This document shows positions 19,711 to 46,020 of a stretch of 64,000 nucleotides of DNA, one piece after another. The stretch lies in NCBI RefSeq assembly GCF_003334335.1, contig NZ_QOWQ01000016.1. One strand, given 5' to 3'. Under the pieces are notes generated by a model, which was not told the DNA's origin, made no database searches, and was given only the letters and a program-made list of their open reading frames with translations. The position numbers and the translations under genes are program-made. Source of the DNA: Escherichia coli (GTDB lineage: Bacteria; Pseudomonadota; Gammaproteobacteria; Enterobacterales; Enterobacteriaceae). How positions within the stretch are numbered: position 1 is the stretch's first letter; each line of letters starts with the position of its first letter.

Positions 19711-20727
19711 CGGCCCCTTCTGGGCAATGCCGATCAGTTAAGGATTAGTTGACCGATCCTTAAACTGAGGCACTATAACGGCTTCCACAACAGGGAGCCG
19801 TTTTCTTATGCCACTTCTCAATGATCTGCTCGATTTCAGTGACCATCCGCTTATGCCTCCGCCCTCTGCACAACTATTTGCAGAACACCTTCCCACCGAG
19901 TGGATACAACACTGCCTGACGCTTTCTGCTCATGCGACCGTTCGCCGCCGTCGTTTACCGGGGGACATGGTTATCTGGATGGTGGTGCAATGAGCCAATT
20001 ACCGATGTTGTTCGCCGTCTGAACCTGAGCGCGGATGGCGAAGCGGGGATGAACCTGCTGGCCCGCAGCGCTGTCACCCAGGCGCGTCAGCGCGTGGGGG
20101 CCGCCCCAGTGGAATGGCTCTTCCGCCAGACCGCACAGACAGGGGCGCGGAACGTTACCTGAAGGATGACTGGCACGGCCTGCAACTTTTTGCCATTGAT
20201 GGCGCACAGTTCAGGACACCTGATAAACCCGAGCTGCGTGAATATTATGGGTCTGCCAACACATCCACTAAGCGGCAGAACGCCTACCCGGTTATGCGTC
20301 TGGTGGCCTTAATGAACCTGGGAAGTCACATTCTGCTGAATGCCGTGACCGCACCTTACCGGCAGAGCGAAACTGTGCTGGCCCACTCCATGCTCGCCAC
20401 CATCCCGGATAACTCTATTACGTTGTTTGATAAACTTTTTTACAGCGAAGACCTGCTGCTGACGCTGAACCAGAAGGGTTGTAACCGCCACTGGCTACTG
20501 CCTGCGTGGAAGAATATCGCATCAGAAATGATAGAGCTGGGAAACACGGCGTCACCAGGGACCATCCCGAAACGACTGGAGCATCTTCGGGGTGCTCTGG
20601 AAGTGGTGTTCATAACAAAACGCCCCCGACCATCAAGGCCGAGGTCGGTTAAGATATCAAAAACCCGTTATCCTGTGAAACATAGTGCCGCTCCTCTTAA
20701 GTGAACGGCATTGCCCTTCTGGGGCCG
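19711..20727 (+). mobile_element. Degenerate IS4-family-like insertion sequence remnant bounded by imperfect 21-bp inverted termini
   Basis: Termini CGGCCCCTTCTGGGCAATGCC (19711-19731) and GGCATTGCCCTTCTGGGGCCG (20707-20727) are inverted copies matching 17/21; they flank the frameshifted transposase reading frames. Confidence 0.5.
19808..20704 (+). pseudogene. insZ: Transposase pseudogene (frameshifted, truncated); corresponds to K-12 insZ/ychG
   Basis: Three consecutive reading frames (19808-19993, 19932-20162, 20114-20704) together encode transposase-like sequence; total length is too short for an intact transposase. Confidence 0.6.
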
Positions 20728-43396: not shown

Positions 43397-44497
43397 ATGT
43401 CAAATGCTCAAGAGGCGGTAAAAACCCGCCACAAGGAGACTTCGCTTATTTTCCCGGTTCTGGCGCTGGTAGTGCTGTTCCTGTGGGGAAGCAGCCAGAC
43501 ACTACCAGTGGTCATTGCCATCAATCTTCTTGCGCTTATTGGTATTTTAAGTAGCGCCTTTAGTGTTGTCCGTCATGCGGACGTATTAGCCCATCGCCTG
43601 GGAGAACCTTACGGTTCGCTTATTCTTAGCCTTTCAGTGGTTATTCTTGAAGTCAGTTTGATTTCAGCTTTAATGGCAACCGGCGACGCCGCGCCAACGC
43701 TAATGCGTGATACGCTCTATTCAATCATTATGATTGTTACCGGTGGGCTGGTTGGCTTTTCATTATTGTTGGGCGGTCGTAAGTTTGCCACCCAATATAT
43801 GAATCTGTTTGGTATCAAGCAGTATTTAATTGCGCTGTTCCCCCTGGCGATAATCGTACTGGTATTTCCAATGGCTCTGCCTGCGGCGAATTTTTCAACC
43901 GGTCAGGCGTTACTGGTAGCATTAATTTCTGCGGCAATGTATGGCGTATTTTTGCTGATCCAGACCAAAACGCATCAAAGTTTGTTTGTCTACGAGCACG
44001 AAGATGACAGTGATGATGACGACCCGCATCACGGTAAACCGTCTGCCCATAGCAGCCTGTGGCATGCTATCTGGTTGATTATCCATCTGATTGCCGTTAT
44101 TGCGGTGACCAAAATGAACGCCAGCTCGCTGGAGACATTGCTCGACAGCATGAATGCCCCTGTCGCCTTTACTGGCTTCCTGGTGGCACTGTTGATTCTG
44201 TCGCCGGAAGGTTTAGGTGCATTAAAAGCAGTGTTGAACAACCAGGTTCAGCGCGCGATGAATCTGTTCTTTGGTTCAGTGTTAGCAACCATTTCGCTTA
44301 CCGTACCTGTCGTCACGCTAATTGCCTTTATGACGGGTAACGAATTGCAGTTTGCACTTGGTGCGCCAGAAATGGTGGTGATGGTGGCCTCTTTAGTGCT
44401 GTGCCATATCTCCTTCTCCACCGGACGTACTAACGTGCTCAATGGCGCAGCGCATCTGGCACTGTTTGCCGCCTATTTGATGACGATATTTGCCTGA
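43397..44497 (+). CDS. chaA: Ca2+/H+ (Na+/H+) antiporter ChaA
   Basis: 366 aa from MSNAQEAVKTRHKETSLIFPVLALVVLFLW with an internal acidic stretch (EDDSDDDD); ORF-track start is an extension. Confidence 0.9.
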   Translation: MSNAQEAVKTRHKETSLIFPVLALVVLFLWGSSQTLPVVIAINLLALIGILSSAFSVVRHADVLAHRLGEPYGSLILSLSVVILEVSLISALMATGDAAPTLMRDTLYSIIMIVTGGLVGFSLLLGGRKFATQYMNLFGIKQYLIALFPLAIIVLVFPMALPAANFSTGQALLVALISAAMYGVFLLIQTKTHQSLFVYEHEDDSDDDDPHHGKPSAHSSLWHAIWLIIHLIAVIAVTKMNASSLETLLDSMNAPVAFTGFLVALLILSPEGLGALKAVLNNQVQRAMNLFFGSVLATISLTVPVVTLIAFMTGNELQFALGAPEMVVMVASLVLCHISFSTGRTNVLNGAAHLALFAAYLMTIFA

Positions 44498-44783
44498 CAG
44501 TTATATCTCCTCCGATGACGGTAATCGGGGGAGATAATATAAATTCCTGCTTATTGTATTTCTTCATACTACCTGGACAGGTCGTTAATCAGAATTGCGA
44601 GCCTGTACCACACCCTGCACGAAACCACTGCAACAGCTGTTGAAAAGCCGGAATGTACTCTTCATTGCAAACATTTCAGGGATGAAGTGAAGATGAATTG
44701 CGACGTAGTATCCACACCAAGCCGGCGTTATCCGGTGAGGCGCAATGTTGCGGGGCTTTATCCCTGGTGGCATTGGTTGCTGG

Positions 44784-44853
44784 AAAGAGAAAACCCCCGC
44801 ACGTTGAGAGGTAAAACCTGACAACAAAACGGGGGCTAATCTTGAAACCAGAC
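44784..44853 (-). ncRNA. rdl: Rdl-type antisense RNA (type I antitoxin) for the adjacent ldr toxin
   Basis: Minus strand reads GTCTGGTTTCAAGATTAGCCCCCGTTTTGTTGTCAGGTTTTACCTCTCAACGTGCGGGGGTTTTCTCTTT, with CCCCCG/CGGGGG stem plus U-run terminator; ends are approximate. Confidence 0.45.
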
Positions 44854-44900
44854 ACTTCAAGAATAGCCGCAAAATGTTGTCATTACAACAAGGCGGCTAT

Positions 44901-45008
44901 ATGACGCTCGCGCAGTTTGCCATGATTTTCTGGCACGACCTGGCAGCACCGATCCTGGCGGGAATTATTACCGCAGCGATTGTCAGCTGGTGGCGTAACC
45001 GGAAGTAA
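44901..45008 (+). CDS. ldr: Ldr-family type I toxin (35-aa membrane peptide)
   Basis: ATG at 44901 to TAA at 45006-45008 encodes MTLAQFAMIFWHDLAAPILAGIITAAIVSWWRNRK; below the ORF-track length cutoff. Confidence 0.8.
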   Translation: MTLAQFAMIFWHDLAAPILAGIITAAIVSWWRNRK

Positions 45009-45156
45009 GGTGAAAACGGGCGTCAGGCTGCCGTGATGGCAATATGCGCCCGAAACCGGCCGCAGGGGTAACAGCCTGCGGCCTTTTTTGTATCCGGCAC
45101 CCATGAAAAAAGTCTTAACGCAGAACGCTAATACTTTATTTTTCAAGCAAAAAAGA

Positions 45157-46020
<864 letters not shown>

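What the first reader, a model, noticed from the sequence alone, without database searches (positions are those of the whole stretch)
44640..45010. Single Ldr/Rdl type I toxin-antitoxin module between chaA and kdsA
An unlisted 35-codon ORF (44901-45008) encodes an Ldr-type toxic peptide, and the complementary strand at about 44784-44853 has a terminator-bearing small-RNA signature consistent with the Rdl antisense RNA. The chaA-kdsA spacer is only about 660 bp here, whereas K-12 has three tandem long direct repeat copies (ldrA/B/C) as I recall, so this strain has a contracted or unexpanded array.
Basis: partly seen in the sequence, partly recalled or inferred. Interest (0 to 1): 0.4.

Follow-up and report, generated by a model that had tools for sequence, protein, structure and literature searches.

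The report
Single Ldr/Rdl toxin-antitoxin unit, contracted array
Between chaA and kdsA this E. coli strain carries one intact copy of the well-known Ldr toxin / Rdl antisense-RNA module where K-12 has three, most likely through a clean recombinational loss of two repeat units; about a quarter of sequenced E. coli have one unit here, so it is ordinary.

Summary
The ORF at 44901-45008 (+) encodes a 35-aa peptide identical to K-12 LdrA/LdrC, with a full-length Pfam Ldr_toxin match (E 1.8e-24). The Rfam rdlD model matches 44788-44853 (-) end to end at 91.8 bits (gathering 50). A terminator hairpin at 45058-45083 closes the unit.

The chaA-kdsA spacer is 659 bp, against 1729 bp in K-12 MG1655. The difference is 1070 bp, exactly two 535-bp repeat periods.

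The evidence favours contraction.
- Deleting 1070 bp from the K-12 spacer, at any breakpoint within 44855-45083, reproduces the window spacer base for base. That 229-bp tract is where LDR-C and LDR-A are identical.
- The flanks differ from K-12 at only 3 of about 5400 bases, while K-12's units differ from each other by 2.4-3.4%.
- Other genomes carry C/B chimeras and C-B-A mosaics, so contraction recurs.

Among 5426 complete E. coli genomes, about 24% have one unit here, about 28% two and about 48% three or more.

This is a known system in a common allelic state. Interest is low.

The parts
44618..45084 (+). One LDR repeat unit body. It is identical to K-12 LDR-C (0 differences in 466 bp) and joins directly to the kdsA-proximal flank that follows LDR-A in K-12.
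   Evidence: Alignments; the exact in-silico deletion.
44706..44711 (+). Putative -10 hexamer (TAGTAT) of the ldr promoter. Family-wide sequence conservation begins here. Inferred, not mapped.
   Evidence: TAG(T/A)AT is conserved in all 14 units from Escherichia spp. and Pseudocitrobacter, while the sequence upstream diverges. The consensus scan found no full promoter of 9/12 or better.
44718..45090 (+). Inferred ldr mRNA of about 370 nt: a long 5' UTR (about 183 nt), the ldr CDS and the terminator.
   Evidence: The 5' end is inferred from the conserved -10 and the 3' end from the terminator. The length agrees with my recollection of about 370 nt for ldrD mRNA (Kawano 2002), which I could not check against the paper here.
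44788..44853 (-). rdl gene: a 66-nt cis-antisense antitoxin RNA, fully complementary to the ldr 5' UTR, ending 47 nt upstream of the ldr start codon.
   Evidence: Rfam RF01813, 91.8 bits, full model; fold z = -5.1; same geometry as the annotated rdlA/B/C in K-12.
44860..44888 (-). Putative rdl promoter on the minus strand: -35 TTGTAA (+ coordinates 44883-44888), 17-nt spacer, -10 TATTCT (44860-44865), then 6 nt to the Rdl 5' end at 44853. It lies inside the ldr 5' UTR.
   Evidence: Read directly. Both hexamers are conserved in the 14-unit alignment. At 8/12 it is below the 9/12 cut-off of the scan. Inferred.
44890..44893 (+). Shine-Dalgarno-like AAGG, 7 nt upstream of the ldr ATG. Rdl does not cover it.
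   Evidence: Sequence; AGGCGG is conserved in the alignment.
44901..45008 (+). ldr CDS: a 35-aa hydrophobic toxin identical to K-12 LdrA/LdrC.
   Evidence: 57% identity and a full-length alignment to the solved LdrD structure 5LBJ.
44855..45083 (.). The 229-bp tract in which LDR-C and LDR-A of K-12 are identical. An unequal crossover anywhere in it yields the window's sequence exactly.
   Evidence: 229 permissible breakpoints, each giving a 659/659 match.
45058..45090 (+). Intrinsic terminator of ldr mRNA: a 9-bp stem (8 G-C pairs), an 8-nt loop and a T-run.

Best explanation
This is one intact unit of the E. coli Ldr/Rdl type I toxin-antitoxin system. A stable mRNA of about 370 nt (+ strand, roughly 44718-45090) encodes the 35-aa membrane-active toxin Ldr. 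A 66-nt RNA, Rdl (44788-44853), is transcribed from the opposite strand within the ldr 5' UTR. Rdl pairs perfectly with that UTR, blocks toxin synthesis, and the duplex is a substrate for RNase III. How pairing about 47 nt upstream of the start codon blocks translation is unresolved in the literature; the proposal is leader-ORF ('ldrX') coupling as in hok/sok. The single-unit state in this window is a contraction. An ancestral K-12-type array of three units (C-B-A, in the chaA to kdsA direction) lost exactly two 535-bp periods through unequal homologous recombination between LDR-C and LDR-A, within the 229-bp stretch where they are identical (the ldr CDS and terminator). Shown here: the identity of both genes, the anatomy, the exact deletion relationship to K-12, and the population frequency. 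Inferred: transcript ends, promoters, expression, the direction of change (strongly supported) and the recombination mechanism.
For: Identity: Pfam Ldr_toxin, full length, E 1.8e-24. The peptide is 100% identical to K-12 LdrA/LdrC. It matches the solved LdrD structure 5LBJ at E 1.5e-10. Rfam rdlD, 91.8 bits, full model. Rdl fold z = -5.1. Terminator. Same order and spacing as the annotated K-12 genes. Mechanism from the literature: Rdl inhibits Ldr synthesis and overlaps the 5' UTR, not the RBS (PMC4147584). An ldrD/rdlD duplex of about 21 nt is captured in vivo, with RNase III effects (PMC7373196). LdrA causes a rapid ATP drop and growth arrest (PMC8309996). Contraction: 1729 - 659 = 1070 = 2 x 535. 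An exact 1070-bp in-silico deletion of K-12 reproduces the window spacer at 229 possible breakpoints. The unit is C-type at every C-versus-A diagnostic column, and the right flank is the A flank. The flanks differ from K-12 at 3 of 2344 bases on the chaA side and at none of about 3 kb on the kdsA side, while units B and A differ from C at 11 and 16 of 467 positions. At the flank divergence rate about 0.26 differences are expected, Poisson P < 1e-14. A-type and B-type variants are shared with distant lineages such as O157 and ST131, so they predate the split between K-12 and this window. K-12's 60-68-bp inter-unit junction is absent from the window and unrelated to the unique flanks, so duplicating the single-unit arrangement could not create the 535-bp period. 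Intermediates exist: SW07091 has two units with unit 1 a C/B chimera and unit 2 equal to A, and the APEC O78 single unit is a C-B-A mosaic.
Against: There are no expression data for this strain. The ldr promoter and transcription start are inferred only, and the consensus scan found no strong promoter. Outgroups (two Pseudocitrobacter species and a divergent Escherichia, E69) carry one unit at the same site, so one unit is probably the deep ancestral state, and a single-unit allele is not by itself evidence of loss. A repeat path skipped during assembly would give the same C-left/A-right sequence as a real deletion, and without reads this cannot be excluded for this assembly. The published regulatory mechanism (ldrX coupling) is unconfirmed. 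My own candidate coupled leader ORF (44842-44904) is not conserved across the family.
Confidence: 0.88

Rival explanations
1. Unexpanded array: this lineage kept the ancestral single Ldr/Rdl unit, and K-12's three units arose later by tandem duplication.
For: One unit sits between chaA and kdsA in Pseudocitrobacter faecalis, P. vendiensis and a divergent Escherichia (E69). Fozo et al. 2010 infer lineage-specific duplications in this family (PMC2887945).
Against: The window is almost identical to K-12 in the flanks (3 differences in about 5.4 kb) and identical to LDR-C. K-12's B and A units are 2.4-3.4% diverged from C and share variants with O157 and ST131 units, so they are far older than the split between this window and K-12. 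The inter-unit junction cannot be derived from the single-unit arrangement.
Confidence: 0.05
2. Assembly artefact: the strain really has two or three units, and the assembler collapsed or skipped the repeat.
For: A graph path that enters through the C unit and leaves through the shared 229-bp tract into the A flank would give exactly this sequence. No reads are available.
Against: The unit is not a majority consensus of three copies. It is C-type at the five columns where C differs from both B and A. At least 20 independently closed genomes carry this 1101-bp stretch at 100% identity, and 1321 of 5426 complete genomes have a single-unit spacer.
Confidence: 0.05
3. Decayed remnant: the single unit is a non-functional relic, with toxin or antitoxin no longer expressed.
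For: Decay does occur in this family: the Pseudocitrobacter vendiensis orthologue has an in-frame stop at codon 31. IS insertions in the array arise in experimental evolution (PMC5419217) and in natural genomes.
Against: The ORF, the Shine-Dalgarno sequence, Rdl (full Rfam model), both putative promoters and the terminator are intact and identical to K-12 LDR-C.
Confidence: 0.02

Closest known systems
E. coli K-12 LDR-C (ldrC/rdlC) and LDR-A (ldrA/rdlA), chaA-kdsA interval
   Same: Same locus, same gene order and same spacing. The unit body is identical to LDR-C (0 differences in 466 bp), the right flank is identical to that of LDR-A, and the toxin is identical to LdrA/LdrC.
   Different: One unit instead of three. 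LDR-B, most of LDR-A's diagnostic 5' part and both inter-unit junctions are absent.
E. coli K-12 LDR-D (ldrD/rdlD), the experimentally characterised founder (Kawano et al. 2002) and seed of Rfam RF01813
   Same: A solitary unit with the same architecture: a 35-aa toxin, and Rdl antisense to the 5' UTR about 48 nt upstream of the ATG. The Rdl hairpin stems and the -10 hexamer are conserved.
   Different: A different locus (bcsG-yhjV). The toxin is only 57% identical. The Rdl 5' tail and apical loop differ, and these are the likely determinants of cognate specificity.
hok/sok (plasmid R1) type I toxin-antitoxin system
   Same: A small membrane toxin, a stable mRNA with a long 5' UTR, and a short unstable cis-antisense RNA that pairs upstream of the toxin RBS. 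The Ldr literature proposes the same leader-ORF coupling logic (PMC4147584).
   Different: No sequence homology. The Rfam sok model gives only a sub-threshold hit here (26.9 bits against gathering 59). No leader ORF in a conserved frame was found across Ldr units.
Fst/RNAI-RNAII (par of pAD1)
   Same: The toxins belong to one Ldr/Fst superfamily: a transmembrane helix, a conserved Trp and a basic C-terminus (Fozo 2010, PMC2887945).
   Different: The Fst antitoxin is encoded opposite the 3' end of the toxin gene, not the 5' end.

Membership tests
Ldr toxin family (Pfam PF13940) | Full-length match of a peptide of about 35 aa to the family profile | tested here: met
   PF13940, residues 1-35 against model 1-35/35, E 1.8e-24, 85.9 bits. 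NCBIfam has no matching model. RefSeq names the identical protein an Ldr family toxin.
Ldr toxin family (Pfam PF13940) | Hydrophobic helix followed by a conserved Trp and a basic C-terminal cluster | tested here: met
   The sequence ...AAIVSWWRNRK aligns end to end with LdrD of PDB 5LBJ, E 1.5e-10. The motif is conserved in all 14 homologues.
Ldr toxin family (Pfam PF13940) | Toxic when over-expressed | not testable with these tools
   The peptide is 100% identical to K-12 LdrA, whose toxicity is published (PMC8309996).
Rdl antitoxin RNA (Rfam RF01813) | Covariance-model score above the gathering threshold over the whole model | tested here: met
   91.8 bits against 50, model 1-66/66, not truncated.
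Rdl antitoxin RNA (Rfam RF01813) | Encoded antisense to the ldr 5' UTR, upstream of and not overlapping the RBS or start codon | tested here: met
   Rdl's 5' end at 44853 lies 47 nt upstream of the ATG at 44901. K-12 rdlA/B/C show the same 47-nt gap.
Rdl antitoxin RNA (Rfam RF01813) | Stable terminator-type hairpin with a single-stranded 5' tail | tested here: met
   MFE -26.7 kcal/mol, z -5.1. The stems are invariant in 14 homologues, so this set gives no covariation support of its own.
Rdl antitoxin RNA (Rfam RF01813) | Expressed as an RNA of about 60-66 nt that represses Ldr synthesis | not testable with these tools
   Shown only for rdlD in K-12 (PMC4147584; PMC7373196).
Tandem LDR array at chaA-kdsA (K-12 type) | Two or more head-to-tail 535-bp units separated by the 60-68-bp junction | tested here: not met
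   One unit only, and the junction sequence is absent from the whole window. This is the point of the finding. It does not affect membership in the Ldr/Rdl family, since LDR-D is also solitary.

The most novel reading that the evidence does not exclude
Copy number of the chaA-kdsA Ldr/Rdl array behaves as a fast, recombination-driven dosage polymorphism in E. coli (one, two and three-or-more units at roughly 24%, 28% and 48% of genomes). It shows repeated independent contractions that leave lineage-specific C/B/A mosaics, and it is possibly maintained by selection on toxin dosage rather than by neutral gain and loss.
Probability: 0.15. Interest if true: 0.3.

Novelty: already known. Interest (0 to 1): 0.1.

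Why it matters
It matters little beyond correct annotation. The rdl RNA gene is not annotated in the RefSeq records that share this sequence, although it is plainly present. The copy number of this toxin-antitoxin module also differs between strains, which bears on studies that delete 'all' type I toxins or compare persistence phenotypes across strains. The exact relationship to K-12 is a neat example of unequal crossover within a tandem array.

Tried and rejected
(1) Coupled leader ORF. The + strand ORF 44842-44904 has a TTG start inside the Rdl-complementary stretch, preceded by GGGGG, and a stop that overlaps the ldr ATG as ATGA. It looked like the proposed 'ldrX'. The frame is closed or lacks a start codon in LdrD, E69, one E1V33 unit and all Pseudocitrobacter units, so I rejected it as a family feature.

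(2) The in-frame upstream ATG at 44874 (44-aa variant) is present only in E. coli A/B/C-type units, so I did not adopt it.

(3) The Rfam 'sok' hit on the + strand at 44752-44903 scores 26.9 bits against a gathering score of 59. I treated it as noise.

(4) NCBIfam returned no family for the peptide. Pfam did.

(5) The covariation test for the Rdl hairpin was uninformative, because the stems are invariant across the 14 units collected.

(6) The consensus promoter scan found nothing at 9/12 or better. Both promoters are proposed from conservation only.

(7) I tested whether K-12's inter-unit junction derives from the unique flanks. It shows no similarity above shuffles.

(8) Kawano's 2012 review (doi 10.4161/rna.22757) is not held in the library.

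(9) The papers that mention ldrB, ldrC and chaA together report IS150 insertions and a cloned fragment, not unit deletions.

Full report
**What is there**

The window is E. coli chromosome. It is collinear with NZ_CP042903.1 at 99.6-99.8% identity over the 50 kb of that record compared (window 1-50000). chaA (+) ends at 44497 and kdsA (-) occupies 45157-46011, which leaves a 659-bp spacer.

Inside the spacer, the ATG-started ORF at 44901-45008 encodes MTLAQFAMIFWHDLAAPILAGIITAAIVSWWRNRK.
- It matches Pfam Ldr_toxin over its whole length, E 1.8e-24.
- It is 100% identical to K-12 LdrA and LdrC.
- It aligns end to end with the solved LdrD peptide 5LBJ.
- RefSeq annotates it as an Ldr family toxin in genomes identical over this stretch.

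On the opposite strand, Rfam rdlD (RF01813) matches 44788-44853 over the full 66-position model, at 91.8 bits against a gathering score of 50. It is the only match of its kind in the window. The RNA folds into a 16-nt single-stranded 5' tail, one long GC-rich hairpin and a U-tail (z = -5.1).

A strong terminator hairpin at 45058-45083, followed by a T-run, closes the unit on the + strand. Two small corrections apply: Rdl ends at 44788, not 44784, and the unit extends from 44618 to about 45090.

**Anatomy and likely working**

I aligned 14 units: the window, K-12 A/B/C/D, three other Escherichia lineages (E. whittamii, Escherichia sp. E1V33 and the divergent strain E69) and two Pseudocitrobacter species. 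Family-wide conservation starts at a -10-like hexamer TAG(T/A)AT at 44706-44711. That places the ldr mRNA start near 44718 and gives a transcript of about 370 nt, with a 5' UTR of about 183 nt.

Rdl is transcribed from within that UTR. A conserved TTGTAA-17 nt-TATTCT motif lies at 44860-44888 on the minus strand. Rdl's 5' end is 47 nt upstream of the ldr ATG, the same geometry as the annotated rdlA/B/C in K-12. Rdl therefore pairs perfectly with the UTR but does not cover the Shine-Dalgarno sequence (AAGG, 44890-44893) or the start codon.

From the literature:
- Rdl represses Ldr synthesis. The mechanism is unresolved, and leader-ORF ('ldrX') coupling as in hok/sok has been proposed but not confirmed (PMC4147584; PMC8309996).
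- An ldrD/rdlD duplex is captured in vivo, and RNase III affects both RNAs (PMC7373196).
- LdrA, which is identical to this peptide, causes a rapid ATP drop and growth arrest.

I looked for a conserved leader ORF. The attractive candidate at 44842-44904 is not conserved across the family. Variation among Rdl homologues lies in the 5' tail and the apical loop, while the stems are invariant.

**Contracted or unexpanded?**

K-12 MG1655 has a 1729-bp spacer with three units at a 535-bp period. The difference, 1729 - 659 = 1070, is exactly 2 x 535.

The window spacer is 100% identical to the K-12 spacer with 1070 bp removed. Any of 229 breakpoints between 44855 and 45083 gives this result, and that tract is exactly where LDR-C and LDR-A are identical. 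Column by column, the window unit is C-type at all C-versus-A diagnostic sites, and from column 468 onward it is the sequence that follows LDR-A.

Four further points support contraction.
- The flanks differ from K-12 at 3 of 2344 bases on the chaA side and at none of about 3 kb on the kdsA side. K-12's units B and A differ from C at 11 and 16 of 467 positions. At the flank divergence rate about 0.26 differences are expected (P < 1e-14).
- B-type and A-type variants are shared with O157 and ST131 units. The three units therefore predate the split between K-12 and this window.
- K-12's inter-unit junction (60-68 bp) is absent from the window and unrelated to the unique flanks. Duplicating the single-unit arrangement could not have produced the K-12 array.
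- Intermediates exist. SW07091 has two units, a C/B chimera followed by A. The single unit of an APEC O78 strain is a C-B-A mosaic, and that of ST131 is a different mosaic.

The best reading is a recent unequal crossover between LDR-C and LDR-A, one of many independent contractions at this locus.

**Population and outgroups**

Of 5426 complete E. coli genomes, 1321 (24%) have a single-unit spacer. Places with at least 80% coverage are single pieces, apart from occasional IS200 interruptions, and multi-unit arrays stop at 72% coverage. With a longer query that also joins two-unit arrays, 2834 genomes qualify. That gives about 28% with two units and about 48% with three or more. The evenly spaced samples agree (10:13:21 of 45; 10 of 40).

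At least 20 closed genomes share the window's sequence at 100% identity over 1101 bp.

In a scan of one genome per species, one unit sits between chaA and kdsA in two Pseudocitrobacter species and in a divergent Escherichia (E69), and two units in Escherichia sp. E1V33. A single unit is thus probably the deep ancestral state of the locus. That does not change the inference for this K-12-like haplotype.

**Comparison with what is known, and verdict**

Everything here belongs to the Ldr/Rdl type I toxin-antitoxin family described by Kawano et al. (2002). Tandem duplication and lineage-specific gain and loss in this family are already described (Fozo et al. 2010, PMC2887945). Membership tests for both the toxin and the antitoxin are met. 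The only feature not met is tandem repetition, which is the point of the finding and does not define the family, since LDR-D is also solitary.

Collapse of the repeat during assembly cannot be excluded for this particular sequence without reads. The allele is nevertheless common in closed genomes.

Novelty: already known. Interest: low, about 0.1.

Noticed in passing
window 27508-28536: Three tRNA-Tyr(GTA) genes (27508, 27802, 28096) are interleaved with four RtT repeats (27636, 27930, 28227, 28405). The 99.6%-identical record NZ_CP042903.1 has two tRNA-Tyr and four RtT. This is a second tandem-repeat copy-number variant in the window, and here the tRNA-containing unit is expanded.
   Followed up: partly
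window 44752-44903 (+): Sub-threshold Rfam 'sok' (RF01794) match over the ldr 5' UTR, 26.9 bits against a gathering score of 59. It is probably noise, although hok-like regulation has been proposed for ldr.
   Followed up: partly
window 44842-44904 (+) and 44874-45008 (+): Two upstream reading frames. One is a TTG-started 20-codon ORF whose stop overlaps the ldr ATG (ATGA). The other is an in-frame ATG that would give a 44-aa Ldr. Neither is conserved outside E. coli A/B/C-type units.
   Followed up: yes
window 44788-44853 (-): The rdl RNA gene is not annotated in the RefSeq (PGAP) record that shares this sequence, although it scores 91.8 bits with Rfam. Only the K-12 record lists the rdl genes.
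   Followed up: yes
L011 1443-1550 (Pseudocitrobacter vendiensis, chaA-kdsA spacer): The orthologous Ldr ORF carries an in-frame stop at codon 31 (...IVGW*RNRK), so the toxin is truncated or decaying while the Rdl region is intact.
   Followed up: no
L008 (NZ_JABWSY010000055.1, 503 bp, 'Bacillus sp.'): A 503-bp contig at 0.66x coverage in a Bacillus assembly carries ldrD-like DNA. This is almost certainly E. coli contamination.
   Followed up: no
hits H43 and H77 (E. coli EC16 and strain 4069), chaA-kdsA spacer: IS200C insertions lie inside the Ldr array in some natural genomes. IS150 insertions at the same array arose in experimental evolution (PMC5419217).
   Followed up: no
hits H75/H115 (E. 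coli MY504, NZ_AP026902.1): This genome shows only an ldrD-locus match and no chaA-Ldr-kdsA match at megablast sensitivity. Either the locus is divergent or rearranged, or the genome is misassigned.
   Followed up: no
window ~1-1610 and ~19800-20700 (by collinearity with L017): Phage exonuclease, excisionase and integrase genes abut ompW at the window start, which looks like a prophage end. A frameshifted IS4-family transposase lies downstream of adhE.
   Followed up: no
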